DNA of 60,777 nt, the filler included, from Hausera hauseri (Eukaryota): the NCBI GenBank assembly GCA_046269625.1. It is 11 parts of 11 records of this genome, joined end to end, with 100 filler letters (N's around TTAATTAATTAA, not from the genome) between each part and the next. Parts side by side here need not be neighbours in the genome. Positions count along the whole stretch, not along the records: positions 9,864 to 15,184 come from JBJURY010280285.1; 10 more parts are not named here. One strand, 5' to 3'. Of this stretch, positions 432 to 58,302 are shown piece by piece (position 1 is the stretch's first letter; the number at the start of each line of letters is the position of its first letter). The position numbers and the translations under genes were made by a program. The notes under the pieces were generated by a model. The model did no database searches. It saw only the letters and a list, made by a program, of their open reading frames with translations, and was not told where the DNA came from.

Positions 432-3400
432 TCACTTTCGCTTATCATCGTTACATGACAAAACGACTTTCGCATTAGTTATTGTGTACAACTGGTGCTT
501 AATTGATCGGATGATGGTTTCAGACACAACAGCCACTGATTGTCCTCCTTTTACTGCTGCTGCTTCTTTATATATACGGCGATAATCACCGTGGTCGATT
601 TCCGTCTGCTTCAGGTGGACTCCTTTGGCGCGCATTTTCGGTCCACAGTCCGTCAGAATACTGTAGCACTTTGAACGTAGGAATATCCATTCCTAATACC
701 GGACACGACCTTCACTTTCATCCTTGAAACAACCGATTTTGTCGGTGATCGCGCTGCTGTACAACAGATGATCCTCTGGATAGTTGGACGTGTCCAGTAG
801 TCCATCTGCCATCATTTGCTGCAGCAGTTGGTCGCGATTAACGTTTATCAGCTCAAGGAAAAAGCTGTCTGTTTCACCGACAATGATACTGATCTCATAG
901 CCATTGAACATTTGCCGGTAACGTGCCAAGTCGCGATACTGGAGCTCATACATTCGCAATTTGCTCAAGTCCAATACCATTTGTCTGATATAACTTAATC
1001 GGTCCAGAACGACTTCTCTGTTTAGTAGCATCGCAACCATTCCATCGGCAATGTGCACTGACCGCCGAAACTGCGCCTTACTCGTATACGTAACCAACCG
1101 CTTTTCGCTATTGCATAAGCGTACAATGAGCCGCTTTTTCAGATTCTCCACTGTTTTTCCATAGAGCGAATTGTTTTTCAGCTTGTAATAGTCCTTTTCA
1201 AACTTTATACAATCTGCAGCTCGTTTCTCCAAATTTCCGTCTATGAACGCCTTGAATATAAGAGCCTGAGCAAATCGGATTGCACGATACAGCTGTGTTA
1301 CGCGTACACCGAACTGCATTTATAACTGTATCAAATGCCAATGAACCACGTAATTCAGTTTCAATTCATGCGTCATGAGCAGTTTCTTCACTTTTGAGCC
1401 TGGCGGACATTGGTTAAATGGTGCGATAGGTAAACCATCCAAAACGTCATGTAGCTCATTTGGTACCACGAGGGCGACCTCCATCAGGTATCCGACTGAG
1501 CCTGCCATGTCTGCTTGTGGTAGGTTGACCACTATGTCGTCCAGATCTTGTGTGTCGACAACCCATTCGAATGAAACGTACGGCAAAAGTTGCGAAAGCG
1601 CCCAGCCGTACAGGTTATTAATATCAATATACAGCAGTGATATGGTATCGAAGGTAGCACTGACCTGATGCTTGCTGACAAATGTCATGCCGCCGCGAAT
1701 ATCAGCATCAAGCAGCCGGTACATTTCCGGGTCTTGAAGCAGCTCAATGTCTCGATTTAGTGACATTATAGCTGACGCCAAACTCATTCCTGGTATGGAA
1801 TAAAAGTTGAGTGGCTCCAACCTATCTTCAACCAATGTTTTCTCTTGAAACGTTTGGAACACATCGGCTAACAGGTACACTTCCAGTTTAAGATACTAAG
1901 GAATGTAATCCAACATGTTTCTACAGCCAAGTTCTGTCCAACACCTCTGTGCTTTCCGGTATTCATCCTCTGCAATACCTGTCCATCGCGGCGGTAATCC
2001 CTCTCCTGTCCGGAGTCGCTCATACGATGTTGCAAAGTCATATGGAAATATGCCTTTGCTGCGTACAATATGTGCGGAAAACTACGTCAGTACTATCGGC
2101 ACATCTGGCAAGGCAATTACCAGCTTTGCCAGAGATTTATTGAGAAATTGCCATGAATCGAGGAAGCGTACCTGAAACCAATTAATACGAGCAGACAATG
2201 ACAGGTATTTCTCCATCGTAGTCGGAATTACGGATAGTTCCCAGTGCGGAAATCCGTTTATGGCCCATTTTAAAATATAGTGACAATCATAACCCCTGAA
2301 GTTATGAAATACCACCGGCAAGAATGGCCGCACACGCTTTACTAAATTGCATGATTTGCATGCTGCTCCGAGATATTAATCGATAGAATGATCGTGATCT
2401 GGTACGAGCCGTTCCTGTGTATCGAACGGTAATATTCTGTGGCATAGGTAACATTCATCTGTGACTGCAAACGTCAGGCATTCATCTTCATTTGTCCACA
2501 TCAAGGGTTTATTGCTATTTCTACTGCACCAGGGTGAGATTTTAGTTTCCAATATGGTTTTCAATTGCTGCAAAAAATCACGTACACAATTCCATCCGTG
2601 GAAAACATAATATTGAGGTTGAAGACATGAGGCTTTTATTGTGACAACCAAAATTCCGAAGGCGATTGAAACATGTTTTTGGTCATATATTTTGCGCCGT
2701 GGTAGGATAGCTTCGATATCGGCATATACTACATATGCCGGACTATCTGTTTTTGGCCAATAAGTGAGTCCGAGTTCTTGTTTGACGGGCATGACATACA
2801 TTGTGGTTCTTGAAAAATTTTGTCTGCACAGTGTCACATGTTTCGCCAATGTTGTTTCCCACCTGAATCCATGAAGACATACAGGACAAAATTTACACTG
2901 TTTTTGGAGGAAACAATCATGCTCCATGTTTAGCAGTTTGTTCGGATTTATCACTGCATCGCAATGGTACTTTTCTTTTCTTTTCAGTAGCAACAAATTT
3001 ACTGAGAGGCCATTTGGGTATCAACTACAATAAACTATATGCACATAAGGATTTTCGTAAATTTCTTCATACACCGGTATTTCTACGATTGTGTTATACC
3101 GGAACACGTTGATTGTCAGTGTCGGATTATGCCGTTCCAAAGCAGAAATGGTTTTGAGTTTCATCAACATCTAGCTTTTATCTAAATCCAATTCGGAAAA
3201 ATACTGCCGATACTGTTTTGGACGAGATGCATTATGTCTGTACACTTCGTCATATTTCAATACAGCCAGAATACTGTAAAGAAAACATTATTCATCGTTA
3301 GTATTTTTTACATTCACTACCGCCGGAGACTGCTTCTGAGCTGCAGGCGTCGGTATGAATGATTGCCCGGACAAATATATTATATCACTCGACTTTGTTA

Positions 3401-3724
3401 TGATAAAGCTGAGGGTGACAATTCGTATAATTCACCATCCACTACTCTTTTCCGAGTAGTTGACGATTTTCTCCTCCAGCTTTTCGCCGACGTCGGTAAT
3501 AAAATCATTCCATAAGGTACAGCTCGATGTGACAGATACCATTGTTTCGTGTCACCTTCAATATTTTCAAACTCTGCAAGTGCATAATATTGCACTTTGC
3601 AGTGTTGGTGTTGATGTTGGAATTTTTCCACTTCTAATTCCACCCGGTTGCGCACATTTTGCGGAAAATATCTCAATTGCGCTGTTGTTGTTGTTTTCGA
3701 CGACATATTCGCTTTTATATCCAC
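432..3724 (-). pseudogene. Polinton/Maverick protein-primed family B DNA polymerase (pPolB), broken by stops and frameshifts
   Basis: Consecutive minus-strand ORF pieces carry YADIEA (exo I), CYLC..DHDH (endonuclease VII-like insert), FHNFRGYDCH, RFLDSWQFL, KGIFPY, IRGGMTF, YIDINNLYGWALSQ, KLKNNSLYGKT and GETDS (YxDTDS-like). Confidence 0.92.
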
Positions 3725-7249: not shown

Positions 7250-8799
7250 TACATAGGAAACTTCAACGTTCCAACACGCAGGGGCAAAGAATGCGCTTCA
7301 CCACTGGCGCCGGAATACTCATCGTAATCAACGTTGTCTGGCAGAGGAGCAATGAATGCTGAAGGCGGCGGTTGTGCGTTAAGAGGTAAATCGAGCTAAT
7401 TGATTGAGGTCGGAACAAAGCTTATCAGATGTTGGTGAATTTGATCGACTGTTGGTATCCAGATAGGGTCCATTATGTGAAATCTGGTTAATTGAAGGAA
7501 TAAATCGAAAATGGCATGAAGCATATTCTGATGATTTAACATCCCCAGTGAGCGAATGCGGTTTATTCGGCGAGCATCACGATACGTAACATGTCCCCCA
7601 AGGACCATGCTGTAATTCAACACACCTTAAGATATCAGTTTGAGCCAGAGAAAAACAGGATAAAAACAGGTCGACGTCAAAAGTGACAATCACTCGTCCA
7701 TAAGTGAATCCAGCCACGCGAAGGGACACCAATGCGAGATCTGCAGCAGTTTCCAACGCCTGAAGAGGTATACCATAAATGTGCGACTCCGAATTAGACA
7801 CACGCACGCGAAGGCTAATCATTGTGCAGTAACGTTACAATAACGTGCCGCTTTGCATTTCACCCAGGCATATACCAATGCAAACTTTAATGGCTCCAGA
7901 GAGAGCCGTTGCGACACCAACAAAAATGTAATCAGCGCCCACTGGTTGTCGGTTTAATCGCATAAAAGAACGGCGTTTATGCGCCGTAGGAGGTAGCGGT
8001 AAGAAAGAACAATTCATCAGTCGTGTAGCACCATTATTAGATTGAGACCAATATTCCAACCACGGCAACGAAATACTACATTCGATTTCTAGCATAATGG
8101 TCGTGGGCATGACATCTATTCGCACTTTTGGACCGTCAATAGCCAATACGGATGATGTGAAACGAATGGAGGAATATTCTGGAACTGGAAAATAAGACTC
8201 GACGTCTTGATCTTGCCAATAAAATTCCAGTTGACCCTCAGATATCGATAAAAGACTATCACGAAGATTATATTGTAAGTCCGATTGTTCAAGAAGCTTC
8301 TCTAGCAACAGTCGAAGCTGTATTGTTGCTTTTGGCGAAAACGATGAACTATAATCATTCTCTCTTAAAGGCTATTACTTTTTAACCAGTTGGGCAATGA
8401 AAAGGAGTTTTTATAAACGATGGTCGAGCGTGTACGAGCATTGGCATTGATGGCTTTGTACATATTATTAGAACGCGGTATTTCGTAAAATACATTGGTT
8501 GGTTTTACATCATCGGTTCGTATAAGTAGTCCTGGAAGATCTTGTAACTGTCGACTTTGCACTGTATTATCGATGAAACGTATGGAAAATTGAGTTGGCT
8601 GCAAAATTTCATCATTTGTAGATGTTCGTTTACCATCGTGTGGTATCGTTTCACCCAAACCATGTACCAAATTCACAAGATGAGAGGCCTGTGCATTTTG
8701 GATATTTACAATAGATGGTTTTCGCCTCTGTAACCACGAGAGGTAGGTTGGATCTGACACTGAAGGAAAGGAAGAATAAGAAAAATTCGCTACAGCCAT
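7250..8799 (-). pseudogene. Retroelement accessory ORF with C-terminal DEDDh (REX4/ISG20-like) exonuclease fold lacking catalytic acids
   Basis: ORF pieces 8365-8799, 7835-8308, 7577-7822 and 7396-7623 join via single stops or indels. DYIFVGVATAL...YCTMISLRVRVSNSESHIYGI...GRVIVTFDV...YRDA aligns with the 38158-38910 protein. Confidence 0.55.
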
Positions 8800-8829
8800 G
8801 CAGCTCGCAGCTGTAGCTAAAAGTAATCG

Positions 8830-9763
8830 TCATAAGATTACCTCATAATTTAGATCGTGTTTTTGATCATCAGGCTTGCTATTTTTAGTTTTATAACTAT
8901 TACGTTTAATGCTCTCATATTCGTCTCCATCATTTATCCGCAAATTCCAAAAATTTCGCCGAAGCCACCAAGTAAGAGCAAACACAATAATGATCATCCC
9001 AACGACTACAATAATAACGACAAGCCAAGAAAATAAGATTAAGTGATCAATAGGACTTTCAGCTGCAACGTTAAGAGAAGACTGCATATTTATTCTACCA
9101 TAATGACTAGATAAACTCATTCCTTCTGGGGGTATCTGGTGTGGTAGCAGTTCTTTTTGGCAATGGGCAACGAATTTCATTTTTGGTTTACTTTTACATA
9201 TAGGTGATGTTCGAGACAAGACATATCGCAGCATAGACGAAACAGTGGGGTGTACAAGTTTTTTGCTATAGTCTTTGAAACCAACAATGGCTTAGGTACC
9301 ATGAGTTTTAAGGTGGTATTGAGAAGCGTAAAATTATTAAAGCCAAGTATAATAAAGGTTAATTGGACAATATCGTAGCCAGTGCTTGAAATCTCAAGGC
9401 TATAATTCTTCGTGATCCGAATTTTATTAAAACCTCCATTCTCTACCTGATGTCCTGTAGCACTATAACACAGTACTTTTATTGCTATGTGATACGAGCC
9501 CAACAAGATTGTAACAATACCCATATGTTGCCGTATAAAAATTTACGGAACTCTATACGTTTCCTTTAATTTATCATTCTTTGTTGACGATACTCTCTCC
9601 CAAAGATATTCTTCTGATAGATTTAATGGTTCAGTTCGTGCTCGAATCCATTGGAAATTAATATATCGGCGCAGATTGCCTACGTTACAGCTGAGTTTTA
9701 GCCAGGCTGATTTGCTATAGTTAAACTCGCGTTGATATCTAACTACCCGTTTAGAGGTCTTCC
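8830..9763 (-). pseudogene. C-terminal part of an env-like membrane protein
   Basis: TM helix LILFSWLVVIIVVVGMIIIVFALTWWLRR plus cytoplasmic tail, N-glycosylation sequons, and an LFRLCC motif matching RVCC/QVCC of the env-like ORFs at ~19660 and ~36925. Confidence 0.5.
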
Positions 9764-9863: not shown

Positions 9864-10950
9864 ATGAACGTGTATAGTTGATGATAATATCGGATTGCTG
9901 CAAAAAGAATCCATTGAAGCTGAGACGGAAATTAGTTGGTGACGATTCTCGTTGTAGAGCCTCGAACAAATGTGCGATGGTTGCTGTTTTATGTACATAA
10001 TATGTATATTCGCGTTTATTTCCTAGTGAAAGGGTTAAAAAAATGAAATTTTTTAATATGTCAGGTGTATAGCGCGGTGCACAAAACACGGGTATGCCCA
10101 CAATATCCGAGTTGTAAAGGCTTGTTTTTCTGACCGGGGAGATCATTGATTTGAGCTGCGATGATTTATTATTGGCGTTGCGACAAAGATGGAGAAATTG
10201 ACTATTGTCAAAATATATGGTGACCAATTCATCGGGTGAACTTTTATATGTTAAAGAATTGGTACATTCATTAACATATGTATAAAAGAAATATGGTATA
10301 TTAATTGATTGAGAGTCATTTAATTGGGATTTGGTGTCGGAACCAATGAATAGGCGTAAACGTAAAGTTATTGATAGTGGTAAAAATGTGAACAGGAAGG
10401 ACGATCTTAGGTAGGGATAGTGAAGATGGTATCTGTTCATGATCAATAAGTAGCATTTTAAGTTGATGCGATGAGTCAAATTTATAACAAAATCTGATAT
10501 TGTTGTTTTAGTATGTGTGCGGTGTGTGTGTATATGTTTGTCTTGAAAGAAAAGATAGATAAAGGAAAAGACATGTTTATTTTGTAGAGTAAGAGAAGTG
10601 CAGAAGAAGGTATGTTCAGGTTTGGAGGTATAGTGCGCCACCGGAGGCACGACCGCGCACCAACGATAACTGTTGACCTTTCGAGTAACTGTATTGACGT
10701 TTTTTTCTTCTACGGAATTTCGATACAATTGGTTTATCATATTGTTTTTAAAAACGATTGGAAAATAAGTTAAGAAATGAATGTTCGTTTTCTGTTGATA
10801 ATATACCTTTAAGTCAAATGTTCTCTCCTTCATCCATCGAAAAAAATGTAAAAGTAAGTAATTCCTATATTTCTCCGAATGCGTGTCGATATTTACGCCT
10901 TCATTCAATCGATGGAAATCTTTTATATTACTGAACTTTAAACGTTTCAC
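9864..10950 (-). CDS. Continuation of the mosaic ORF: SCAP-like start followed by two ubiquitin-like domains; runs off the contig end
   Basis: INVKRLKF continues SCAP SIDIRRMEL across a 1-nt shift. FIYLFFQDK..TTISDF..TLRLRLFIG and FIFLTLSLGNKREYTYYVHKTATIAHLFEALQRESSPTNFRLSFNGFFL resemble beta-grasp Ubl domains. Confidence 0.5.
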
Positions 10951-10951
10951 A

Positions 10952-13381
10952 TTAATGGGAAAAAATGGTAACGAGGCGTGTTAATTGTAGAAAAAGGTCA
11001 GCAGGTAAACCGATTGCGAAAAATGGCAGGAATACTTGTATGGCAGGATTAAGTGTAAAAATACCCAAGCTCATAATAAATATTTCAGAAATCAAATTTT
11101 GTGTTATTATCCAACCTTCTTTTTTCAGACCTTGTGCTTTTCTATGTTTCACGCGTAAATCGAATACTAAATGTTTCGATGAAAGTTGAACATGCGTGGG
11201 CAACATTTCTTTTTCGATATATGAAATTTCGTTTTTAAATTCAACAAGATCATGAATGTTAATATTGTATATTGCTTTCAAATCCGAAATAGTAGTGGTT
11301 AAAAACCTTTTGTCACAAGTTTTCTCTGATCGTTCATGCCGCGGATGGGGTAATCCCAAATGACCTTGTTCTGGTCTAAACATACGTAAATGGGGTTTAA
11401 TTTTTTTAAGATTGTCTTTGGGCGTTTCTGTCCCAGATGGGGTTGTGGTTGTCATATGCATTACCATAATTATTGTTTTGTACGTTTTTGAATTTTTATC
11501 TCGAATAAACGGATCTTGTAAAAACAATCGGACATACACCACGTCAATATTATGAAATATTTGCTGCATCGAGTGCCGGTCCTTCGATCCGATGATTTTT
11601 TTAACTCCGGCAAGAACGTGGTTAGTCATCGATTCATGAAACATTTTGACAAGAGGTTTTATAGCAATGCACATGAACAAAATAGTAAACCACGCAATGA
11701 ATACGGTGGTGTCTTGTAGGACGTTTTCGTTTATTTTCGTGTTAGAAGGAATTAATAGTGAAAAACTATATGCAATTTTGCCACGCAGGTAGCTATACCA
11801 TCTGATAAATTGTTCGTTCCACTTAATATACCTTACATTCAAATTAAAATAATTAATAAGAAATGGGATACATAACGTAAAAACGAATCTAACGTAGAGG
11901 TCCGTAGAATCGAAGAAAGCAGAATCATTTGTACTGATTGTTGCGCGATTCAGTGCTTGCATTCTAGGTGCCATTGCCACGTTTTCCTCCGTTTCTGTAT
12001 TTCGCATACGCGAGTAGTGCTTTATCGTTTCTGAGCCACCAGTCACAATGGTTCGTTTAATTGTACGAAATGGATTTCCATCAATGGCAATACTTTTCAA
12101 GCTATACATATAACGGAAAACCATTGGCAATGATGTAAGATCATTGCTACTAAGGTTGATATTGGAAATTTTATTGTGAATTTCGGAAAGCTTATTGTTA
12201 ACCAATGCCAATGTAAAAACAATTGAAATGAGCGATATGTGTTCAGCAGAAAGAACTTTGATTTGATTATGTGTTACCAGTAATTCCATCAAATTAGGAT
12301 GTGATAAAGAAATGGAAAAGATTGTCAGACAATTGAATTGTAAATTAAGATGCTCTACAGGAGCTGCAAATCGTTCAGAAAATTGGCTTATTTTATTATA
12401 AGACAAAACCAATGACTTCAAATCCACAAATGAATCAAGGAAATCGGAAAATTTTATGTTAACCAGACTAGAATTTTCAGCAGTAGACTTCTCGGAAAAT
12501 ATGTTTTCAATTTTCGTTGAAAAATCCAAAATGCAATTAATAAATTCATAATGTTTCTCCGTAAATAAAATCTGATTAAAAACGGTAACTTCTTTCATTA
12601 AACCGTTGATTTCAGAGACAACAAATTTATTTAATTTGTTAATTTGACCAACAGAATCAAATTCAACGTGGGAATCAAGAGGTTTGGGAACCTTTTCGCC
12701 ATTGTCGAGTAAACTATACGGTATTATTATTGAAATATGTTTTTCGGAATCAGTTTTAATGTATTTATAAACACGTTTTGGTTCCAATATAAATACGTAA
12801 CTCGCATAATCTTTTAGTTTCGGTAGATTTTCCACAGTTTTTACTTGTCGGCAAATAATGTTGTCTACTAAGGATGCATGTTTCTGTCTCGCTTTTATAA
12901 GACAAGCAATGACTTTCTCATTTGAGTTTTCTGGCAAGATGAAAAATTTAAACTTGTTCCGGACTTTTGCACTGAGAAGGTCATTTTCAGAATCTTTACC
13001 ACCACCCAATAATTCAGGTTCAAATGGCTTTTTTATAAAATATCTGTCATCATCGTCAGTATTAAATAATTCATTTCCCAACAATTTATGATGCTTGATT
13101 AATTCATTAATTGTTGCATCATTTGTGTCTGATATCCTTTCACCAGTTTTGATACCTCTTTCAGTAAGTGGCGATCGGAGTGTGCCATCAGTTTCCTGTG
13201 ATATTATAATTTTAATTTCACCGGTATTTTCAGAATTAATACGTATATTCCTATGGTGCTCGGCTCTGTTTAATTCCTGTTGATAGTCATATTCTGATTT
13301 GGAAGCGGAAACTGCAATTGTTCTAGTAAATTCTTCTGTTGGATCTCTAACAAAAGTCTGTGTTTCATAGTAGTCCAACAT
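10952..13381 (-). CDS. 809-aa chimeric ORF: unknown N-terminus + LRRC40-like LRRs + SLC9 Na+/H+ exchanger fragment + SCAP sterol-sensing-domain fragment
   Basis: LRR ~12420-12000 (IAIDGNPFRTIKRTIVTGGSETIKHY, cf. LRRC40 LEGNPLRTIRREII..GTQEVLKYL). NHE ~11900-11515 (EQFIRWYSYLRGKIAYSF, FTILFMCIAIKPLV, HVLAGVKKIIG). SCAP ~11170-10955 (DLRVKHRKAQGL..EGW..GIFTLNPAIQVF..ADLFLQ). Confidence 0.75.
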   Translation of the reverse strand: MLDYYETQTFVRDPTEEFTRTIAVSASKSEYDYQQELNRAEHHRNIRINSENTGEIKIIISQETDGTLRSPLTERGIKTGERISDTNDATINELIKHHKLLGNELFNTDDDDRYFIKKPFEPELLGGGKDSENDLLSAKVRNKFKFFILPENSNEKVIACLIKARQKHASLVDNIICRQVKTVENLPKLKDYASYVFILEPKRVYKYIKTDSEKHISIIIPYSLLDNGEKVPKPLDSHVEFDSVGQINKLNKFVVSEINGLMKEVTVFNQILFTEKHYEFINCILDFSTKIENIFSEKSTAENSSLVNIKFSDFLDSFVDLKSLVLSYNKISQFSERFAAPVEHLNLQFNCLTIFSISLSHPNLMELLVTHNQIKVLSAEHISLISIVFTLALVNNKLSEIHNKISNINLSSNDLTSLPMVFRYMYSLKSIAIDGNPFRTIKRTIVTGGSETIKHYSRMRNTETEENVAMAPRMQALNRATISTNDSAFFDSTDLYVRFVFTLCIPFLINYFNLNVRYIKWNEQFIRWYSYLRGKIAYSFSLLIPSNTKINENVLQDTTVFIAWFTILFMCIAIKPLVKMFHESMTNHVLAGVKKIIGSKDRHSMQQIFHNIDVVYVRLFLQDPFIRDKNSKTYKTIIMVMHMTTTTPSGTETPKDNLKKIKPHLRMFRPEQGHLGLPHPRHERSEKTCDKRFLTTTISDLKAIYNINIHDLVEFKNEISYIEKEMLPTHVQLSSKHLVFDLRVKHRKAQGLKKEGWIITQNLISEIFIMSLGIFTLNPAIQVFLPFFAIGLPADLFLQLTRLVTIFSH

Positions 13382-15184
13382 CTCTAATGACAGTGTTTGT
13401 TCTGCATGAGTTTCTTCAATGTAAGTTGATTCTGTGAAATTATCGGTTTTCTCTCACAAAATTGTCATATTCTTCCTTGTGTTTTGCAAAATATCCCAAT
13501 ATTTCCGAAGACTGATCATCAATCATTTGTAGACTTGATTTTGAAAAGTTTTCCGTCGGTGGAATAAAATGCATATTGGCATTGAAATCGGAATCATTAT
13601 TATCTGACACCATTGTTAATTTAGGAATATATCCACATAACATTGTTAATTCAGAATAAAGGAATAATTCCAAATGCAGTAAATAAAGTTTATTTTCCAA
13701 ATCAAAAAATCCAATCAATTAAAATCTATTATGTACATTGATATTTTTCTATACATTTATTTACATATAAATATACAAATATATAGTCTGAGGATTTTGA
13801 TAGATATTTTTCTTTTAACAGAACATCAATTGTGGTACTGATAATAATAATAATTCGTTATTCTCGATATTTTCGTTAACAACCGGTACGTCTTTTCTTC
13901 TTATATCTTTTGCGTGATGACTCAACTAAATTTCCTTCCCCTGGTGGCAATTCATTGTCACTTTCTTTTAGAAGCTTTAGTATTTTAATAACGTTTCTTT
14001 TCCAACTTGTTTGTCACATTAGAATCGATAATTTCCTTGCACTGGATAGAAATATCAAACAATCAGCAGCAGTGTCTTATAGATTTATAACACGATTTTC
14101 TCTTGGCCACACTGTATTATCGATTGAGGAAATACAACAAAAATATCGGCAGGAGTAATACACTGGGAGGATGAGTCATATCAGAATGTATGTCAGATCC
14201 ATTCAGTTGTAGAAGATTTACTTTTGACAGTCTACAAATATATTTCATTGTCTTGAAAACATCATAATGAAATGGCCATAAACTTTGGAGTCAGTTGATA
14301 AATGAGTTTTTATTTCCACTTGTCTTAGTACCTCCATGTTTGCAGTAAAATATGATGACAATACCATTCAATTATGAACAATCAATTCCGATTTATCGTG
14401 GTAGCACCCGAATCCTCCGCAGCACAATTATGTTTTTGTGTGAAGATATTTTCTGACATGTCAGTAATATTTTATTTTATATAGATATTTTCAAACAACT
14501 ATTGTTCATTTCGTTTACATGATTGTTGTGCTTTAATTTTTCTATGTTGTTTACTTTTGAACGTTCAAAATGGTCATATATTTTACTATTTGGATATCAA
14601 CTGTACTATTATTATTATTTATACTGTCATTTATTTTAGATTTATTTGATTTTGTACAAATTTGGTTGAATCCTGTAAATATGTTTTCTTTTTTGCAGTG
14701 TAAAATTTTAATAGAAAATCTAAATAAATGATGTGTGCAGTAATATATCATCGCTGGCGATTTGTGTACATCTGTCATTTTCGCCCAATGGTACCAAAAA
14801 AACTTTCACAGTTAAGATATTAATCCGTGATGTTTGAGTTTCAGAATTATAATTTGTATATTTTGTATTTGCTTCTTCAATTACAAAGTTTCGCCTTCCT
14901 TTTTTTATTATTTCTCATTTTTAAATAACATTTTGAGTAGCGGAAGGTAGAACGGTTTGAACACGGATCTCACGACGGTTAGATATGTGTCCAATCCCCG
15001 TTTTTCTAATAGCACAACAGCCAGAACTCATCGTATGGCCACTGCTTCGGGAAAGTAGCATTTATTCATCAGCTTTCAAATCCTCCCACCTCTTCAGTTT
15101 TTTGTTTAAAAGATAAGAGTATTCTACGCTGGTGAAAGGTGAATATCCTGTATTGTTTGGCAAGTTAAAACTACACACGAAATG

Positions 15185-21413: not shown

Positions 21414-23740
21414 ATGGACATAAATGCGAACATGTCGGCGACAACAACAACGCAATTGAGACATGCTCCGCATAATGTGCGCAACCAGTTAGAATCCGAA
21501 GTGGAGAAAATCAAACAACATCAACACCACCACCGCAAAGTGCAATATTATTCACTTTCAGAATTTGAAAACGTGCAAGGTGACAGGAAACAGTGGTACC
21601 TGTCACATTGAACCGAACCGTATTCTGACAATTTTATTGCCGATGTAGGCGAAAAGCTCGAGGAGGAAATCGCCACCTACGCGGAAAAGGGTAGTGGCTG
21701 GCGAATTACAAAACTAGTCACTCTTGGCTTTATCGTAACAAAGTCGAGTGACATAATTTACCTGTCCGGACGATCATTCATACCGACACCCACAGCTCTG
21801 CAGCATTCACATGCAGTAGTGAATGTAAAAAATACTGACGACGAATACTGTTTTCTTTGCAGTATTCTGGTGGTAATAAAATATGACAAAGTGGACAGAC
21901 ATAGTGTAAATCGTCCAAATCAGTATCGGCAGTATTTTTCCTAATTGGATTTAGATGAATGCTGGATGCCGATGAAACTAAAAACCATTCCGGCTTTTAA
22001 ACGGCGTAATCCAACACAGGCAATAAATGTGTTTCGGTACAATACAATAATAGAAATATCGGCAAACGAAGGGATATATAAAAACCCCCATGTGGACATA
22101 ATTTATCGAAGTCCGAACGCAAGTGGAGACCCAATATATTTGTTACTTTTGGAGCAAGAAGAAAAGTTCCATTACATGGCAGTAACCAATTTTGACCGAC
22201 TATTAAACATGGACTACCATCAGTTTGTCCAAAAGCATATACAATGTAAATGGTGTCTTGTATGTCTGCATGGTTTCAGGTTAAAAACAACATGGGAGAA
22301 ACATGTGACGCTATGCAAGTGAAATTCAACTGGAACAACCATGTACGTTATACCATTCAAAAAAGAGCTCCGATTCAGTGACTAGTCGAAAACGAACAGT
22401 CCGGCATATGTGGTATATTCCGATATTGAGGAAATTCTATCACGGCACAACGTGTAAGATCAAAAACACGTTCCAATCGCCGTTGGTATGTTGGTTGTCC
22501 CAATAAAAGCGGGCGGTCAGCCGCAGTATTACGCCTTTCACGGCTGGAACTTTACGTGATTTCCTGCAGCGTTTGGAAACGATAGTGGAAATGGAAATCA
22601 AGCCTTGATATTGCAATAATTCTACTAGACCATTGATTTGGACAGATGAATATGAAGTGCTGATGTTCGCTGCGACCGATGAATGCTAGCTATGCCACAA
22701 AATATTACCGTTCGACGCACACGAACGTCTTGTACTGGACCATGATCATTTCACCGATCGATATTTGGGAGAAGCATGAAATTTGTAAAATTGGCAAGGC
22801 GTGCGCGGCAATTCCTGCCGGTGTTTTTTTTTTATAATTTTCGATGTTATTATTGTCATCATATACNNNNNNNNNNGTCAACACTCATAAACAGGTTCCA
22901 GGTACGCTTCCTTAATTTGTTGCAATTTCTCAATGAGTCTCTAGCAAAGCTCGTAAATGGCTTGCCGGATGTGCCGATAACATTGACGGAATTCTCCACA
23001 CATATTGCGTGTAGCAAAGGCATATTCCCGTATGACTTTGGAACATCATATGAGAGACTCCGAACAACAGAGGAATTACCACCGCGATGGACACGTATCG
23101 CAGAGAATGAATACCGGAAAGCATAGAGGTGTTGGACAGAACTGGGCTGCAGAAGCATGTTGGAGTACATGCTTCAGTATCTAAAACTGGACGTGTATTT
23201 ATTAACCGATGTGTTCCAAGCATTTCGAACAAAAGCCTTGGCTGGAGGTTGGCTGGAGCCACTCAACATTTATTCCATACCCGGAATGAGTTGGACGTTA
23301 GCTGTAAAGACACTGGATCGAGACATTGAGCTAATGCAAGACCCGGAAATGTATCGGCTGTTTGTCATCAAGTATCAGGTCAGTGCTACCGCCGTTACCA
23401 CATCGCTGCGGTATATTGATATTAATAACCTGTACGGCTGGGCGCTTTCGCAACCCTTGCCGTACGGTTCATTCGAATGGGTTGTCAACAGATAAGATCT
23501 TGACGACATAATGGTCAACGTACCACGAGAAGACATGGCAAGCTCAGTCAGATACCTAATGGAAGTCGATCTCGTGGTACCAGATGAAGTGCACGACGTT
23601 TTGGACGATTTATCGGTCGCACCATTTAACCAATATCCGCCAGGCTTAAAAGTGAAGAAACTGTTTATGACACATGAATCGAAGCTGAATTATGTGGTTC
23701 ATTGGCATCTGATACAGTTCATGCAGCTCAGTGTACGCGT
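21414..23740 (+). pseudogene. Second Polinton pPolB copy, 3'-truncated
   Basis: Colinear with 432-3724: MDINANMS.., KGSGW, INVFRY, CLVCLHGF, YSDIE, KGIFPYDF, YLKLDVYLLTDVF, YIDINNLYGWALSQPLP; ends after YVVHWHLIQ. Confidence 0.9.
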
Positions 23741-24446: not shown

Positions 24447-24888
24447 TAGTAGGGGAAAAATGCGGGTTCTCTCTCACCTGGGGTGGGGGTAATTGATAAA
24501 TCAATTTTGCACATGTGCCAATCGATAGTGCACACAGTACGTGTACTATCGGTCGGTAGTGTGCTAGGCGACGTTGCCGCAAAGCACTGTTGTTATGCGC
24601 ATTTTTGCACATTTCACAAATCAATCGTTGCACAGTGCAGTATTGATCAAATCGATCGGAACAACGTGCTTATCGGTAGTATACATCAGTGCGCATCGAT
24701 TGGTGCATAGTGCAGATGTGCAGCACACGTAAAAATGTGCAAAAATCAATAATATCGGATTTACTATATTCACAATATTGATTATTGGAGCACGGCACCG
24801 CGTGCAATCGGAAGCACACATGATGCACTGTGTGAATGTGCAGTTAGAATTTAAATATATTGATTGGTTTTCGAATAATTGCCAACTG
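24447..24888 (+). repeat. Interspersed non-coding repeat rich in ATCGAT/GTGCAC palindromes
   Basis: Colinear with 59584-60030 (both start agtaggg(g)aaaaaatg and contain tgtgcagttagaatttaa..tattgattggtttt.gaataattgccaactg). Confidence 0.8.
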
Positions 24889-29514: not shown

Positions 29515-29794
29515 AACTGGTTAAAGCCGTCCAGGTCAACCCTACCTGACGGCGTCCTGTTTAATATAAAGTAAAGAGAGCCTAATAAACCGTAAGGCCA
29601 AGTAAATATAAGCCCACAGGCAACAGTTGACCCGACACATTACCTATAGGTTAGTGATAGGTAGGACTGTTACCTCTGATTGCATCTAGCCCACAAGTCT
29701 TGACAGTCAACTGAGTGCCTATTTTTGTTCTTTCCACTAATTTGAATAAAGCATTATTAAGCCTCTCCCAACTCAAATTGGTGTAGATTGAACA
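29515..29794 (+). repeat. 3' part of an LTR (solo or 3' LTR) of the tRNA-His-primed Gypsy family
   Basis: Colinear with 39622-39913 (gccgtccaggtcaa, acacattacctatagg.tagtgataggtagga, ends gattgaaca); AATAAA present; no PBS after it. Confidence 0.8.
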
Positions 29795-30152
29795 AAAACG
29801 CTTTTAACGGAATAACCATTTAGGAGATTTTCTAACAAGTTTCCATTTTTTTCTGATATTGAATTCAACGATCCATTGGATGAAATATCACTACTGAGAC
29901 TGGACGCATCCTTATTTATATTGTCTTCTATTCCAGATTTTATAGACAATGCTTCAGCTCCAAGTTTCAAAATGAACATATTTCCAACTATAAAAATAGT
30001 TCTGTAGTTCTGAAATTCCTGAATGTGTTTCACCGATATTTAGAAACTAGTTTAATTAGCCAATGAAATGTAAAGTACAGACTTGTAATACGAAGGTTTA
30101 TATCAAATACTCATAAACAGTCAGTAATGCACTTTTAACTATTTGTCTGTCA

Positions 30153-30515
30153 CTACCAAATGCATGTTGACCAAAGACAAATAGAATATTTGTCTGTCTG
30201 TTTAATATAAATGTCGTTGTGATACCAACTGATCTCTGGAACTGGATGTCCAACAACAATTGCTTTAAATGTTGCGGTTCCTTTCAATGCAACTGTTGAG
30301 TTTTGTGGCTTTTTAATAAAATTCTGGAGTTCTAAATAAGGACCTGTACTGTCTAAACTTTCTGAATGCACTAATACGCTTACATTTTTGTGCATTAAGC
30401 ACTTCCAAATGGATCTTTCACGATAACACAATATTTGCCTTCATCATCATGGAATACTTCATGAATATAGAGAGTAGCCACATTTTCATCTCGGAATAAC
30501 TTGTAATCCTTTGAC
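30153..30515 (-). pseudogene. Host Ig I-set domain gene fragment (titin/twitchin-like)
   Basis: ATLYIHEVFHDDEGKYCVIVKDPFGSA and FIKKPQNSTVALKGTATFKAIVVGHPVPEISWYHN. Confidence 0.8.
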
Positions 30516-30519
30516 ACTT

Positions 30520-30640
30520 TAAGGCGGAAAATCGGGACCCGCCTATGCGTCCGACGCGTCGGCAGCGCAAAATCCGGCCGTGCACAACCGAATGGGCCGG
30601 AGGGCAAAGATCGACGTGGGTGCCACATCACCCCCCCCCC
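30520..30640 (-). repeat. Polypurine tract (G10, 30631-30640) and start of the 3' LTR (TGATGTGG from 30630)
   Basis: Reverse complement reads GGGGGGGGGG|TGATGTGGCA; the related element's LTR ends in ACATCA (58131-58136). Confidence 0.75.
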
Positions 30641-30703
30641 GTGGCAAAGTTAGAACTATAAAGAATAAAAGAAAGAGAGAAAAAAAGCGCAAAACAAAGT
30701 GTG

Positions 30704-33700
30704 TTAGTTGAGTTTAGTATGTATAAGGCGTTGAATATCTTCGACTGATTTTTCCCTGCTATATTGACTGAATGTGACTCTGCGTGTTGTGTGTTTTTGT
30801 GCAATGTTTTTGTCTGCAGAAATTGAGGTTGGGGAAAAATTGGTAGATTTTGGTGTAGGTGTTATGTCGTGCGAAGATGAGTCAGAAGGTGAAGAAGGTG
30901 AATAAGGAAGAGTGATTGTTGAAGACGGAGGGTTAAAAGTATTGAAAAGAGTGTTAGAAGACGAAGGAGTGATGAAAGGTGTAGTGGTGGATAAAGAAAG
31001 AAAGGAAAAAGTTGGAGTAGAGATTGGGTTTGTGTTGAATAAAAGAGTGGAAGAGGAAGATGAAACAGAAGGAGTGGTAACGATAAAAAGAGTGGTAGGA
31101 ATAGAAGGAGGAAGTGTAGAAAATGACGTAGTAATACTAGGCACGGGAAGGGAAGGTGGAAATGGTGTAGCAATAGATGTAGTAATAGCAGGGAGTAGGG
31201 CAGTAAGAAAAGAAGTTGAAGTGTCGGTTGGTATGGTGTCGTCGACAAAGAAAGCGGGCTTTAGGTTAGTAATGTGTACTGTGAAGTCTTTGCTATCTTT
31301 AGTGGTAATGGCGTTATGCAAGTGGAGCTGTATAAGTTTATAGGGCCCCAGGTACCGTGGCTGGAAACCGCAAGGAGCTTGATTCTTCAGCCATACGAAT
31401 TTAGCCGTGCACAAATCTTCAGGTAAGTTTTATCTTTGTGAAGTATCTTTCAGAACGAATCTCTGCTGACCTCGACAAAGTGATTTTGCGCCGCTCATAT
31501 TGTCTCATCTGTGGGATTGTCATCTAGGGCGGTTAGTTCGAATAATGATCGGACAGGAGCTTCGAATAAGGCTTCAGTAGGTGAGCATCCTGTAGAAGTG
31601 GACGGAGCGTTACGCCAGCCGAGCAGAACGAACGGAAGAAGATTGGTCCAACTACTGTTGGACTCTGCAAGAATGCGTAGTGACGTTTTCAATGTTCCGT
31701 GGTAACGTTCTAAGAGGCCATTAGATTGGGAATGATAAGGTGTAGTATGAATATGGTGGATCCGCAATCGGTTAACGACGGATTTGAACAGGTTGGACTC
31801 AAACTATGGACAATGGTGCGTGATGACGAAGCGAGGTAATCCAAACCTGCTAATCCATGTGCGAATGAAAACGTCAGCTATGGTGTCAGTGTTTGTGCTC
31901 CACAGATGGATGGCTTCTGGCCTTCACGAGGAACGGTCCATCATGGTGAGGATAAATTGATGACCGTTTTCTGGAGGAAGAGGAACAACGATGTCGATAT
32001 GCACGAACTCGAAGCGCGATGTGCAGGGAAAGTGGAATAGTGGTGGCTTTAAATGCTTAGTTGTTTTGTACTTTTGGCATGCCACACACTCCTTAACCCA
32101 TGCCTGCACATCAGAACGCATTGACGTCTATATTACTTGTCGATGAAGTAGATGAAAAGTGGCGTTAGCACCAGGATGGTGTAGTAAATGCTCATGGTGA
32201 AATACTTGCTTTACAATGAAGATGCTAAAATTTTTACCGATTGTTTTAATTTGGAGGTGTCCAAAGCCATGCCGTCAACGATTGTGCAAGATTTAAAAGA
32301 CTTAAGCATGTCTTGAGGTGGATGGTTCTGTTGAAGTTCTTGCGTAAAAATCGGAGAAAAACTAATTGAACTAACCGACCTCGATAAAAAATCAGCAACG
32401 AAATTTCTAACTCTGTTTATATGTTTAGTATCGAAGTTAAATGTCGATAAGTATGATATTTGTCGTTCTTGGCGTGTGGAAGGATGTTTCATAGCCATGA
32501 TGTTAAGTAAAGGCTTGTGATCAGTTTGTAGAGTGAAACGATGAGCGACAAGTAAATGTGAAAAGTGCTTTAAAGAGAGAACGATTGTTAATAGTTCTCA
32601 ATCAAACGTGGAATATCTGGTTTCAGTTGCGGTTAGCTTGCGGGAGAAAAATTCTAAAGGTTGGATTTTACTCTTGTAGATTTGGTGGATTACAGCGCCT
32701 ACCGAAGTGGTTGACGTGTCAGTGGTGAGGATGAGCTCTGCATCAGGCTTGGGAAAGGTTAGAATATTTACTGTTTTGATGCCTTCGCGTAGCTTGTTGA
32801 ATTTGTCAATTAGTTCAGGTATCCACTGGATTGGTTGGTTTTTTTGCCGCCGCTTAGGTGTGCGAATGGTGTTGTCAATTCCAAACAATATGGTACGTAT
32901 TTATGTATCAAGTGGAGTGTGCCAAGGAAGCTGCGCATTTCACTGGTCGTACGAGGCTATTGGATGTTTTTAAAAGCTTCGACTCGGTCTGATTGGGAAG
33001 AGTGACCGTCTGGTGTAATAACGTGGCCTAAAAAGTTTATGCGCTTTTTGAAAAATTGGCATTTGTCAAAAATGATTTGTAGATTATGATGGTTGAGACG
33101 TTGAAATATTTCTCAAAGGTGTTCTTCACGTTGTTTGGCCGAAGATGAAACGACTAGAATGTCGTCGATATAATAGAAAGAATTGAATCGATGTGCCGCT
33201 GAAAAGTTTGTGCGGCATTCCGCCAAACCAGATGGCATAAATAGATATTCATAAAGGCCAAAAGGAGTAGTTACTGCGGTTTTTCCTATATCTTCGGGTG
33301 CTACCGGTATTTGATGGTATGCTTTAGCTAAATCAATGGTTGAATAGATGGTGGTTGAATTGAGATGATGCAGGATATCCTTGATGAGTGGTAAAGGATA
33401 CGCGTCCATGATAGTCAAGTTGTTTAACTGTCGGTAGTCACCGCATGGTCTAAAAGTACCTTCCTTTTTTGTACAACGTGTAACGGTGGTGACCAAGGAG
33501 ATTTGGAACGGCGTACTATGCCGGAACGTTCTAGCTCGAGAAATTCGGTTTCTACGGCCTGTCTACGGCGAGGTGACAAAGGCCGTACCTTTTGGCTTAT
33601 TAAACGTTGATGCTTTGTGACTATATGGTGTAAAGTGCTGTTGGCTGGAGTAAAAGGTACCATCTTTTTTAAGTACGCGTGGACATGACTTGTTGATAAA

Positions 33701-34400
33701 TTGCTGTAACGCTGTATGTAGCTGTGAGAAATTCAGTGAAAGTAGTGGAACGATTTGAGTGGTTGCGGATGCAGTGTGTGACTTGTTAGGTGGTGTGCAG
33801 TCAAGTGGTATTTGGTGTAAGATGCTTGAATTGAAAATGGTGTTGTATAAAGTTACTTCGCTGAATGGAACAACGTTGGTGGCAGTACCACAATTATCGA
33901 CATTGAACTTCGATCGAATGTCAATATTATTATTTAAAAATTTACGAATATAATTATTATGAAAATTCGAATTAATCGTTGATTTTTTAAGATTAATTTC
34001 CGCATTCCGATCGACTGCGCGATAGTCGAAACGCTATTTACATGTCCAGAAATGTCGCCAACGGTGCCTTTCCTCAAACATTGCTGACTGCAGTCGACCA
34101 GTAAGTTATAATGTGATAGAAAGTTAGATACGAGAATTGCCGTCTGGACGTTAGCGACTGTGAACGTCCAGTAGAAGGGTGAAAGAAAATTCGGCAGAAT
34201 GAAAGATGGTTTAGTCGTACCAGAAATGTGCAGCGGTTGGCCTGAAGCAGTATATAAAGGATTAAGTTTAAATGAAGAATCTTGTGTAGGAAAGGTTTGC
34301 GGTAATAGAGAATTTGCTGCACCTGTATCGATGAGAAAGTCAACAGATTGTGTTGAAGGGGCAGTGATTGCAGCCTTTAGAGTAAAGAATGCAAAAGAGA
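30704..34400 (-). pseudogene. pol: pol (PR-RT-RH-IN) with a long Ser/Thr/Pro-rich C-terminal tail
   Basis: ORF pieces 33934-34605, 33424-33663, 33113-33496, 32598-32888, 32211-32498, 31924-32121, 31495-31767 and 30704-31414. Confidence 0.9.
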
Positions 34401-34529
34401 CGTGTCGGCATGAAGAGTGTGAATTAGTGCAATCGCCAGAGTTTGCAATAACTGCTGGTGGCGAAGTTAGTTTTTTGGAAAGGTAAACTGGGACGACTGT
34501 GAGAAGTGAAGGCAGTACGTTCGTCGTTC

Positions 34530-35562
34530 GTACTGGGTTTGAAGATGCAGCCGGGGATACATTTATATGCTTGATTTTTGAATCTTGCATGGTAAATACA
34601 GACAACGGTGTCGGAGGAAAAATTTTTATTATAGAACTTGCAGCCTAGGCAGCACTTTTGAGCATTAGTGTTAAATCTGCTGTGGTAATAGCAGATTGAC
34701 GAACGTGCAGGCGATGGTGAGCGGTTTTATGACGCAGAACGGGTACAATATGCGGAAAAACCCCCTCAGCGGGACAGTGACAACTCGTTTAGTTTGTTAT
34801 TGATATTATTAATTGTTGCTTGTAGTGCAATGCTTTCAGCACGTAGCTGGTTGAGTTGTTGTTCTATGGATGTAGTATTTGATTGTATGTCGTTAGATGC
34901 GACTGCTTCTGAAACTATTAGTTGAGAATTTGTGTGTAGGACATCGTATGTCCTATCGGCCAATTCGGTTAATTTATCAAGCGGCGTGGAGTCTCCCACC
35001 ACGGTAAGAAGGAACCGTATTTGGATATGTAGGGCATTCAGAAAATAATGGCGTAGAAGATCTGGGTTATGCTGCTTAGTTACTCCAAGAGTACGCAAGT
35101 GTGCTAACGAGGTGCGTAGGAAGTCACTGGGTTCTTGTGTTCCCAGTCCATTTACATTAAAGAAACGTTGCATTATGGAGACAATTGAAGGTTCGGTCTG
35201 TTTTAAGAGAACGTCAAATAATTGGATATAAGGAACAGGGTGTTAAAAATGTCTAGCAGGTTATGTATTGATGCTTTTATTGAGTTGGGGCGAAGATAGA
35301 ATAAGCTGTGAGCTTTAGATAAGGAGTCTGTGATACCATTAGACTGTAGCCAGAGTTGATGGAAGTGAGGCCACGTTTTACTGGATTTTTCATTATCTGT
35401 GAAGTAATCTATGCAATGTGTATAAGTATAAACTGGGTTTTTGTTGGAAGAATTTGCGTCGGTAAAAATAGGTGTATGATTTGGTCTGGTGTAGTAGAGA
35501 ATGGTTATTGGCTTTTTTGTAGTGGTTGTATTCGTGGTGTCAGTGATTGGTGGAGAGTTCAT
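34530..35562 (-). pseudogene. gag: gag with two tandem CHCC zinc knuckles
   Basis: GLGTQEPSDFLR..LLRHYFLNAL..LDKLTELADR; CYYHSRFNTNAQKCCLGC and CIYHARFKNQAYKCIPGC. Confidence 0.8.
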
Positions 35563-35680
35563 TCCACCACGGATACGGAGATGTATGTTGAAGCAAGTGT
35601 AATTTTAAAAGGAAGGTAAAGTTTCACTGAAGTGTATAATAGCACCATTTAGAGTGAGACAGAAGTCTGAAGAACCAATG
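35563..35680 (-). pseudogene. C-terminal half of a ubiquitin-like domain in frame with gag
   Basis: SSDFCLTLNGAIIHFSETLPSF*NYTCFNIHLRIRGG|MNS (cf. ubiquitin QRLIFAGKQL...TLHLVLRLRGG). Confidence 0.7.
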
Positions 35681-35689
35681 TCCTCATCA

Positions 35690-35810
35690 AAATCCACATC
35701 ATCCTCATCACGAAACAGAAATACATTAATTGACAAATGTGGATTCTGCCTCTTAAATTTGCCTGTATTGCATATTTTCATTGGCATATCTTCCAAAGAA
35801 TATTTCAGCT
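35690..35810 (-). pseudogene. Short Polinton pPolB N-terminal-like fragment
   Basis: DMPMKICNTGKFKRQNPHLSINVFLF resembles WMPMKLKTIPAFKRRNPTQAINVFRY in the 21945 piece. Confidence 0.5.
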
Positions 35811-36391
35811 CGCTTAAATAAGGAGTTAATTGCTGTATAATTGCAGTTTAAAAAGAACGAGATTGACCAAACACTTGAATCTTCACTACACGAATACAGT
35901 TTCTGGCAATCAACAGAAGCAATAATACAGGAATTAGTCAATAAGCAGTTCTCGATCAATCCGTTGTCTTCAAGTTAAATTTAAAAAATTCGTAAGCTCA
36001 CAAGTTTTCACGTTCCTTTATCTTCCATCTGCCTTCTTTATATAGCGTTGGAATCCATCAATTATTTATTTTACAACTGTTTCCATTTCATTTTTTAGCT
36101 CTAGCTTTACCCATTAATAATTCAATTCTAAGCTACATTTACATTCTTGTCTGGCTACAATTTTCATTTAGGAATATAAATAATAAATTGAAATGCTAAT
36201 TTAATATTTATGTTACATGTATACATCTTTATATCGTTCATTGTTATGGCGTTCATTGTGGTATTTCTTCTATTTACAACACAACTATAGAATTTCTCAA
36301 TTTTTACACATTTTTGATTTTAATTCAAATGTGTCTTGTGACCTAGCCATACAACTTCCGCTCACACTTTTTTATGGGTTATAGAAGATTT

Positions 36392-42146: not shown

Positions 42147-42810
42147 TTCAGATGAAACTGCAGAATGATGAAATTTCCAGATTGTAGGCTCCAGTGAAAG
42201 TGGCAAAACGCAATTTGCGTGTAAACTATTGCAGAACTACAGTGACATGATTCATTCACAGCGTTACAATCACATATACTGGCATCAGGTGTAGGTGATG
42301 ATGGTGAGTCTGGTCGGACACATCGGGAATTTTGTAAACTGAAATCAATAACGGTAGTTGATGGGTTTGATGAGAACTGGTCAGAGCGATTACGCAACGG
42401 TGGCGTTATTGTCATTCATGATTTATTTCAGGAAGCCGCGAAACAATCGGATTTCAATAACCTGTTCACGAAGATTGCACGACACCGTAGTGTGACGGTT
42501 ATTTTCATTAGGCAAAACATGTTCCATCATGGTGTACAGCACCGAACAAGAAATCTAAACGTACATTATTTGGCGTTGTTCAAAAATCCCCGTGATTAGA
42601 CTATCATTGATTATGTTGCACGACAAGCATTTCCTCACAATCGAGCCTTCTTGACAGATGCATATCATGACGCTATGTACAAACTGCATGGATATCTGTT
42701 TACTGACTTTACACAACGGTGTCCCGATGATATGCCTGCAAGAACAGATATTTTCAATCAGAAAGGTGTACATATCTATAAACAATTTCGAAAATCGACG
42801 AGATGATTGT
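42147..42810 (+). pseudogene. A32/FtsK-like viral DNA-packaging ATPase
   Basis: FQIVGSSESGKT (Walker A), GGVIVIHDL (Walker B), LFTKIARHRSVTVIFIRQNMF, NVHYLALFKNPRD. Confidence 0.85.
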
Positions 42811-43010
42811 GATAAGATGAAGAATTTCCTAAAAGAAATTGTTGAATGTAAACCTACCAAGCGGGTGGCCGGCATGATACGTGTATCAAAATTAACTGCT
42901 ACAGTCAAGCGATCAGTCAATTCTGTGCTTCGAACAATATCAGCAGCAGCAACCAGACGCATATTACCGTGACAGTGGCATTGATTATAAACAACTACGT
43001 ATCAGCATCA

Positions 43011-43358: not shown

Positions 43359-43504
43359 AGGTAGGTATATGGTGATTTGCAATATGCGTGCATGGTCTTC
43401 ATCGTTTTATCCCAGTTTACCGAATCTTTCATTAACAATTCCGTTTAATTATGGCAATGCTAACAAGAATGACATCATCTACAACCCCAACGACAATGAT
43501 CGGT

Positions 43505-49280: not shown

Positions 49281-49289
49281 TGTGGAATG

Positions 49290-50103: not shown

Positions 50104-50249
50104 TTTTGTATTATCCTCTTTTTCAAATAATTTAATCCATCTTATTTCTTTAGGTACCCTTCTTGCAGCTTTTCTGGCTAACCCAATTGCCTCCTATCAA
50201 TCACGGTTTCGTCAGGGAGGGTACTTTTAGATCATTTAAATCGTGAGGT

Positions 50250-58250: not shown

Positions 58251-58302
58251 TTATTTTTTTAAACATACTAAAGAAGGAAAAACGTCAGAAACTAAGAATC
58301 CA

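What the first reader, a model, noticed from the sequence alone, without database searches (positions are those of the whole stretch)
9864..13718. ~1200-codon intronless mosaic ORF stitched from unrelated host genes
Seen: one reading frame joins an unknown N-terminus, LRRC40-like LRRs, SLC9 exchanger TM/tail pieces and the SCAP sterol-sensing domain. After a single 1-nt shift at ~10951 it continues into Ubl-like domains. The fragments have internal deletions and altered conserved motifs (GGLRG to SYLRG), yet 809 codons stay open while the neighbouring mobile ORFs are full of stops. Inference: serial capture of spliced mRNA pieces (retroelement template switching, or Helitron capture followed by retroposition), and possibly a young chimeric gene.
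Basis: partly seen in the sequence, partly recalled or inferred. Interest (0 to 1): 0.7.

Follow-up and report, generated by a model that had tools for sequence, protein, structure and literature searches.

The report
Multicopy five-gene patchwork kept in frame
In an unidentified AT-rich animal, pieces of at least four (probably five) unrelated host genes sit head to tail in one long open reading frame on a repeated DNA element; they were likely picked up as RNA by a jumping gene, and the reading frame appears to be kept while the protein sequence itself decays.

Summary
Real. On a 5.3-kb unplaced contig (9864-15184; the 'neighbouring' mobile ORFs lie on other contigs) one minus-strand frame joins an unassigned N-terminus, the middle of LRRC40, the end of an SLC9/NHE, a weak KIF9 piece and part of the SCAP sterol-sensing domain. 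809 codons are open. Each recognisable joint is bridged by a public contig. The 1-nt shift (10957-10959) is absent from run X1's contigs, and SCAP likeness continues across it, so the frame runs about 1170 codons, off the contig end, into one weak ubiquitin-like domain.

New here: the stretch is repeated (depth 39-56 in the ORF core, about 5 in the flank, 4200 at the 3' end). Copies differ as if protein-neutral (20 synonymous, 44 non-synonymous, 0 stops of 64). Conserved NHE residues are lost (20 of 32 kept). Yet larger rearrangements mostly keep frame (9 of 13; 10 of 19 with small indels).

Best reading: an LTR-retroelement-borne patchwork under selection for an open frame, not for a protein. 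No LTR pair, parent gene or RNA was available to test. The scan noted similar mosaics elsewhere in this genome. A new variant of Bs1-type chimeric capture.

The parts
9864..15184 (.). the unplaced contig that holds the finding, between two artificial 100-base spacers
14421..14427 (-). estimated 5' edge of the repeated block; a TG lies at 14426 (weak: 5 TG in 60 bases)
   Evidence: X1 depth falls from 139 to 16 between bins; edge estimates 14421-14427 from the finer bins, 14397-14447 from the coarser
13720..14420 (-). repeated, non-coding leader (stops in all six frames)
   Evidence: X1 depth 133-1832
13800..13924 (-). short high-depth module about 160-280 bases upstream of the first ATG; candidate promoter core (inferred)
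   Evidence: X1 depth 1832, loose ends at 13799, 13831, 13844
13440..13718 (-). upstream 92-codon frame with ATGs at 13643 and 13613; out of frame with the main ORF in the window, in frame in some copies
   Evidence: no Pfam or NCBIfam match
12449..13453 (-). unassigned N-terminal 335 codons (first ATG 13381); lowest-depth part of the ORF, identical to an X1 contig over 767 bases
   Evidence: searches give no credible match; record 5
11960..12448 (-). middle part of LRRC40 (aa 336-498) with 2- and 6-residue gaps
   Evidence: profile of 23 relatives E 4.7e-35; named relatives LRRC40-like
11384..11899 (-). SLC9/NHE last transmembrane helices and proximal tail (aa 519-690), with 16-, 1- and 1-residue gaps
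   Evidence: 47% identity to P0004, E 2e-46; profile E 1e-38
11186..11383 (-). KIF9-like piece (weak; the Pfam match starts at aa 679 and overlaps the NHE end)
   Evidence: PF23735 E 6e-4, 20.4 bits against cut-off 31.9
10930..11164 (-). SCAP sterol-sensing domain, C-terminal half, continuing nine residues past the shift
   Evidence: PF12349 E 3.3e-10; PDB SCAP E 5e-11; continuation ranks 2 of 6420 nine-mers
10957..10959 (-). 1-nt shift in the window, not seen in run X1's contigs
10024..10929 (-). unassigned open frame, about 300 codons; X1 depth rises from about 130 to 1400 towards the 3' end
9864..10023 (-). ubiquitin/SUMO-like domain (weak), highest-depth module; the frame runs off the contig without a stop
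   Evidence: PF11976 E 0.005; X1 depth 4204

Best explanation
This is a repeated element carrying pieces of at least four host genes in one open frame; the pieces were likely captured one after another as mRNA by an LTR-type retrotransposon, and copies likely spread only if the frame stays open, so the protein is probably a passenger. Shown: identity of the pieces, their joints, the repeated and modular nature, protein-neutral differences among copies. Inferred: capture by reverse-transcriptase template switching; further recombination among copies; and a translation filter, meaning either that the ribosome must read through the patchwork to the high-copy 3' module and what follows it, or that RNAs with an early stop are destroyed by nonsense-mediated decay before they are copied. 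Odds by step: real multicopy mosaic 0.9; LTR/RNA origin 0.65; selection on frame rather than protein 0.6.
For: Joints bridged by contigs of three studies: N-terminus/LRRC40 (X3, 12332-12572, 0 differences), LRRC40/NHE (X2, 11425-11983), NHE/KIF9 (X2, 11319-11447, with 18 extra bases at the joint), KIF9/SCAP (X2, 11135-11301, only about 31 bases on the SCAP side), SCAP/next (X1, 10884-11083). X1 depth 39-56 in the core, 4.5-5.4 at 14848-15184, 200-436 over NHE, 4204 at the 3' end; 577 contigs laid, 115 under 90% identity. Of 64 listed single-base differences in the ORF, 20 are synonymous (19.6 expected if neutral), 44 non-synonymous, 0 stops. The mosaic keeps 20 of 32 conserved NHE columns against 28 of 32 for P0004 (Fisher p 0.04), and 30 of 39 for SCAP; this implies roughly 9-14% neutral divergence. 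Staying open with five in-frame gaps and three sense, in-frame joints has a rough chance of 5e-7. Rearrangements of 18 bases or more keep frame in 9 of 13 cases (p 0.009), 5 of 7 where the size is certain (p 0.045). LTR template-switch capture of several mRNAs is documented (PMC5131818, sections 6, 8). Earlier unchecked notes report mosaics at Gypsy LTR positions in this genome (leads only).
Against: No LTR pair, primer site, gag, pol or target-site duplication lies on this contig; the 3' end is missing. Counting all indels and joints, 10 of 19 keep frame (p 0.065); 5 of the 6 small indels shift it, and the 18-base cut-off was chosen after seeing the data. Several joints cluster at 10816-11385 and may not be independent; one event carries 607 of the 699 in-frame depth. 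The 64 differences are the best-supported rows, not all (192 and 134 rows were not shown), and they include dead copies, which drift neutrally under any model; 0 stops against 1.6 expected has no power. The locus was picked because it is open, among many mosaics. Contig depth is a rough guide and no copy number. No contig spans the whole ORF. Several ATGs precede the first in-frame one. Two of the five gaps (LRRC40) could be lineage-specific to the parent.
Confidence: 0.5

Rival explanations
1. A Bs1-like chimeric gene: the patchwork protein does something for the element or the host, and omega near 1 reflects dead copies or mixed selection.
For: About 1170 open codons; near-identical core pieces in three runs with different organism labels; Bs1 is a precedent (PMC13317346, passages).
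Against: The pieces are partial (last NHE helices only, half a sterol-sensing domain); conserved residues are eroded; modules are swapped or deleted among copies, including the whole SCAP piece (joint 10819-11319 in X1 and X2); small frameshifts in X2 and X3 (low depth).
Confidence: 0.17
2. DNA-level capture (Helitron, Pack-type element, or ectopic recombination at a 'tinkering locus'), with the frame selected afterwards.
For: Helitrons and Pack elements carry several gene fragments (PMC6431247, passages); composite loci arise by ectopic recombination in Drosophila (bioRxiv 10.64898/2026.08.09.743762, sections 8, 13). Parent introns are unknown.
Against: About 1500 bases of recognisable coding sequence hold no intron or flanking non-coding tract; no terminal inverted repeats on the contig; the better edge estimate falls on TG, not TC (weak). 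Weisman's chimeric proteins join two genes.
Confidence: 0.15
3. No selection: one lucky or recently assembled open copy among very many mosaics, possibly helped by an assembly that merged several copies.
For: Chosen for being open; most noted mosaics in this genome are dead; no contig spans the ORF; at some NHE positions no listed X1 contig carries the window's base.
Against: Each joint exists in independent contigs; merging copies does not create an open frame unless the copies are open; chance about 5e-7 for the recognisable part alone; earlier notes list two other stop-free mosaics of 3.5-4.2 kb (unchecked).
Confidence: 0.15

Closest known systems
Maize Bs1 (PMC13317346, passages; the two primary papers were not held)
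   Same: Segments of several unrelated host genes brought together by a retrotransposon into one chimeric ORF.
   Different: Animal; four or five parents plus about 630 unassigned codons; modules vary among copies; no protein-level constraint seen; expression unknown; the LTR carrier is not shown here.
LTR-mediated chimeric retrocopies of animals, including the mouse four-gene 'Super' retrocopy (Tan et al. 2016, PMC5131818; abstract, sections 6 and 8)
   Same: Partial, intron-free, sense pieces of several mRNAs at one locus.
   Different: There, 14 of 21 older retrocopies had lost their frame and in-frame cases were put down to youth; here the frame survives about 10% divergence and the mosaic is itself amplified.
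Planarian Burro giant Gypsy elements (PMC6431247, section 7)
   Same: Host-like domains, among them PF11976 SUMO-like, built into one very long element ORF; another contig of this window has the Burro-like order Ubl, fusion glycoprotein, protease, RT.
   Different: Burro's domains sit in a Gag-to-integrase polyprotein; no gag, env or pol is on this contig, and its Ubl does not match the window's Gypsy Ubl (E 0.1).
Drosophila tinkering loci (Weisman, bioRxiv 10.64898/2026.08.09.743762; abstract, sections 8 and 13)
   Same: Clusters of dispersed gene fragments that form composites and spread.
   Different: Mostly DNA-level with flanking non-coding tracts; 4 chimeric proteins of two parents each.

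Membership tests
LTR-mediated chimeric retrocopy (Bs1 / Tan 2016) | fragments of two or more host genes | tested here: met
LTR-mediated chimeric retrocopy (Bs1 / Tan 2016) | parental introns removed | not testable with these tools
   no host genome held; the mosaic itself is uninterrupted
LTR-mediated chimeric retrocopy (Bs1 / Tan 2016) | flanked by LTR-retrotransposon sequence (TG...CA, primer site, target-site duplication) | tested here: inconclusive
   repeated block starts near a TG at 14426; 3' end off the contig; no match to the window's Gypsy contigs
LTR-mediated chimeric retrocopy (Bs1 / Tan 2016) | microsimilarity at switch points | not testable with these tools
   parent DNA not available
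Functional chimeric gene | purifying selection on the protein | tested here: not met
   omega about 0.97 on 64 listed differences; conserved residues lost; sample includes dead copies
Functional chimeric gene | transcribed and translated | not testable with these tools
   only DNA-type contigs were available
Burro-type giant Gypsy polyprotein | single ORF with Gag, env-like, PR, RT, RH, IN | tested here: inconclusive
   none on the contig; the frame runs off the contig end
Burro-type giant Gypsy polyprotein | PF11976 SUMO-like domain inside the ORF | tested here: inconclusive
   E 0.005, under the curated cut-off
Helitron / Pack-TIR capture | TC...hairpin-CTRR ends or terminal inverted repeats | tested here: inconclusive
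   no TC within the finer edge estimate; no terminal inverted repeats; 3' end missing

The most novel reading that the evidence does not exclude
A giant-retrotransposon 'cargo bay': this animal's LTR elements keep swallowing host mRNA pieces upstream of a conserved high-copy module, and because the ribosome must read through to that module, only in-frame, stop-free captures are copied on. Selfish replication would then mass-produce long, translated multi-domain proteins with no selection on their sequence. That would explain how Burro-like polyproteins gain host domains and would be a steady source of raw new genes.
Probability: 0.3. Interest if true: 0.8.

Novelty: new variant of a known kind. 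Interest (0 to 1): 0.6.

Why it matters
Chimeric retrocopies usually lose their frame with age, and getting several unrelated pieces into one frame is the hard step in making a composite gene. Here the frame seems to be kept while the amino acids drift. If an element's own replication does that filtering, it supplies long translated domain shuffles without any benefit to the host, and the idea can be tested directly with long reads, ribosome profiling and knock-down of nonsense-mediated decay. I found no paper describing frame-only selection on captured mosaics in five full-text searches (listings only); subscription journals and preprint supplements were not searchable.

Tried and rejected
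No whole genome is held, so parents, exon borders and the 3' continuation could not be read. No RNA holder was listed; this says nothing about expression. Word-index protein searches: whole ORF 0 of 5341 candidates; aa 500-833, 1 of 1645, an NHE; second frame against longer proteins 0 of 1043. N-terminus: no credible match in Pfam, NCBIfam, PDB or the Atlas, nor among the best 150 of 586 representative hits. Atlas hits of the second frame to USP-type UBL clusters scored 0.82, a lead only. Single-sequence folds had pLDDT 33-34, so no fold search was run. A profile of the variable SCAP tail did not score the continuation (341 of 500 shuffles as good); the fixed-position test was first run one residue off and corrected by coordinates. 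Metagenome and viral scans for the 3' module gave only seed-sized or marginal matches, taken as chance. No Rfam match of note, no internal long repeats, no histone stem-loop by a strict pattern. Four look-alike look-ups by sequence and one by relatives found nothing among earlier findings. PMC3434034 (abstract only) was not relevant.

Full report
Setting. The window is a string of 11 small contigs joined by artificial 100-base spacers. The finding lies on one of them, 9864-15184 (33% GC). The decayed Gypsy and Polinton-like ORFs are on other contigs and are no local control. The host is an unidentified AT-rich animal; earlier notes call it a probable flatworm, which I did not test. No genome is held.

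The frame. On the minus strand 10952-13453 is open for 833 codons, 809 from the ATG at 13381. A second frame, 9865-10980, is open for 372 codons and leaves the contig without a stop. The other minus-strand frames hold 45 and 92 stops over the first stretch.

The pieces. Profiles built from relatives found among 1.84 billion proteins place the middle of LRRC40 at aa 336-498 (E 5e-35), the end of an SLC9/NHE at 519-690 (E 1e-38; 47% identical to the unnamed P0004) and the C-terminal half of the SCAP sterol-sensing domain at 764-832 (E 5e-25). Pfam adds a weak KIF9 piece at 679-756 (E 6e-4) and one weak ubiquitin/SUMO-like domain at 9889-10023 (E 0.005). All are sense and in their native frame. 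About 335 N-terminal and 300 C-terminal codons stay unassigned. None of the pieces is complete enough to work as its parent does (inference from what is missing).

Read support. Three public runs, held as contigs, from three studies hold the stretch; one could be the assembly's source. Every recognisable joint is bridged by at least one contig, the KIF9/SCAP joint only narrowly (table 8). No contig spans the ORF, so full-length phasing rests on the assembly. At 10957-10959 X1 contigs are one base shorter at depth 62.8+7.5 of 70.2, and the nine residues that follow in the second frame match the SCAP continuation (rank 2 of 6420). The shift is therefore inside the SCAP piece and not typical of the family: 1172 codons run from 13381 to the contig end. 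Near 13450 some copies are two bases longer (20.4 of 131.2), which brings the upstream 92-codon frame into register (1260 codons from 13643).

It is a repeat. X1 depth is about 5 at 14848-15184, 133-186 at 14048-14416, 1832 at 13802-13924, 39 over the N-terminus (one 767-base contig, 0 differences), 72-170 over LRRC40, 200-436 over NHE, 130-170 over KIF9/SCAP, then 342, 550, 1232-1411 and 4204 towards 9864. X2 shows a flatter version (73 at the 3' end, 3-5 in the core) and X3 almost none. Depth is only a rough guide, but 577 X1 contigs spread from 99% to under 90% identity. Modules are shared unequally, and some copies lack a 0.5-kb block with the SCAP piece. Five loose ends that I examined are diverged homologous versions, not foreign sequence. 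The block's 5' edge is near 14421-14427, where a TG lies; this is weak evidence for an LTR start. Upstream of 13720 all frames are closed.

Frame kept, protein drifting. Of 64 listed single-base differences in the ORF (best-supported rows only; 192 and 134 rows were hidden), 20 are synonymous against 19.6 expected under neutrality, 44 change the residue, none makes a stop (1.6 expected). In the NHE piece several changes lead from the window's residue back to that of P0004. The mosaic keeps 20 of 32 conserved NHE columns (P0004 keeps 28) and 30 of 39 in SCAP, about 9-14% neutral divergence (the SCAP baseline is assumed). A rough chance of no stop, five in-frame gaps and three sense in-frame joints is 5e-7, before allowing for the locus having been picked as open. 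Among copies, 9 of 13 rearrangements of 18 bases or more keep frame (p 0.009), 5 of 7 with certain size (p 0.045). Against this: all events give 10 of 19 (p 0.065), 5 of 6 small indels shift the frame (minor X1 copies; single low-depth contigs of X2 and X3), the cut-off was post hoc, and some joints may be the same event. I left the two events at 10957-10959 and 13449 out of these counts.

Mechanism. Template switching between an LTR element's RNA and host mRNAs is the documented way to stack partial intron-free pieces of several genes (PMC5131818, sections 6 and 8). Earlier notes on this genome describe such mosaics at Gypsy LTR positions and two other stop-free mosaics (unchecked, and no sequence look-alike to mine was found). 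I infer that this is such an element, with dead sequence before the first ATG and an open frame after it because copies are filtered on translation: read-through to the high-depth 3' module, or escape from nonsense-mediated decay. The weak PF11976 match recalls the SUMO-like domain in planarian Burro polyproteins (PMC6431247, section 7), and another contig here has the Burro-like gene order, but the two Ubl domains do not match and no gag or pol is linked.

Verdict. Observation confirmed with corrections. It works like Bs1 and LTR-mediated chimeric retrocopies; membership is unproven because LTRs and parents could not be seen. The amplification and the apparent frame-only selection make it a new variant. 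Interest 0.6.

Noticed in passing
window 45777-53620 (-): Decayed Gypsy element with the order coiled-coil ORFs, ubiquitin-like (50253-50819, E 0.011), Monjiviricetes-type fusion glycoprotein (49660-50193, E 4.7e-15), protease, RT (E 1.4e-35), RNase H, integrase: env-like before pol, as described for planarian Burro. Protease, RNase H and integrase were recognised by eye.
   Followed up: partly
window 693-3505 and 21612-23719: Two decayed copies (73-88% alike) of a Polinton-like family B DNA polymerase on different contigs.
   Followed up: no
window 42246-44414: Decayed integrase (rve, E 0.028) with small ORFs that look like Polinton/adintovirus genes (resemblance recalled).
   Followed up: no
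window 29515-36391 and 53721-60777: Two 70-75% alike copies of a second Gypsy family; a RING-like ORF (by eye, no Pfam match) lies at 58518-59144 on the opposite strand.
   Followed up: no
window 24499-24879 and 59639-60439: Shared 81-83% block with a 34-base repeat spaced about 150 bases apart, on two contigs.
   Followed up: no
window 13900-14300 (-): Broken pieces that by eye resemble a RING finger; no Pfam match in single frames. Possibly dead captured sequence in the leader.
   Followed up: partly
window 7835-9542 (-): Run of 120-180-codon ORFs in near-continuous frame with a transmembrane-like stretch; no Pfam match. Could be another decayed mosaic.
   Followed up: partly
whole window: Ten 100-base spacers with a central 12-base word that puts stops in all frames mark concatenated unplaced contigs; ORFs and repeats across them are artefacts.
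   Followed up: yes
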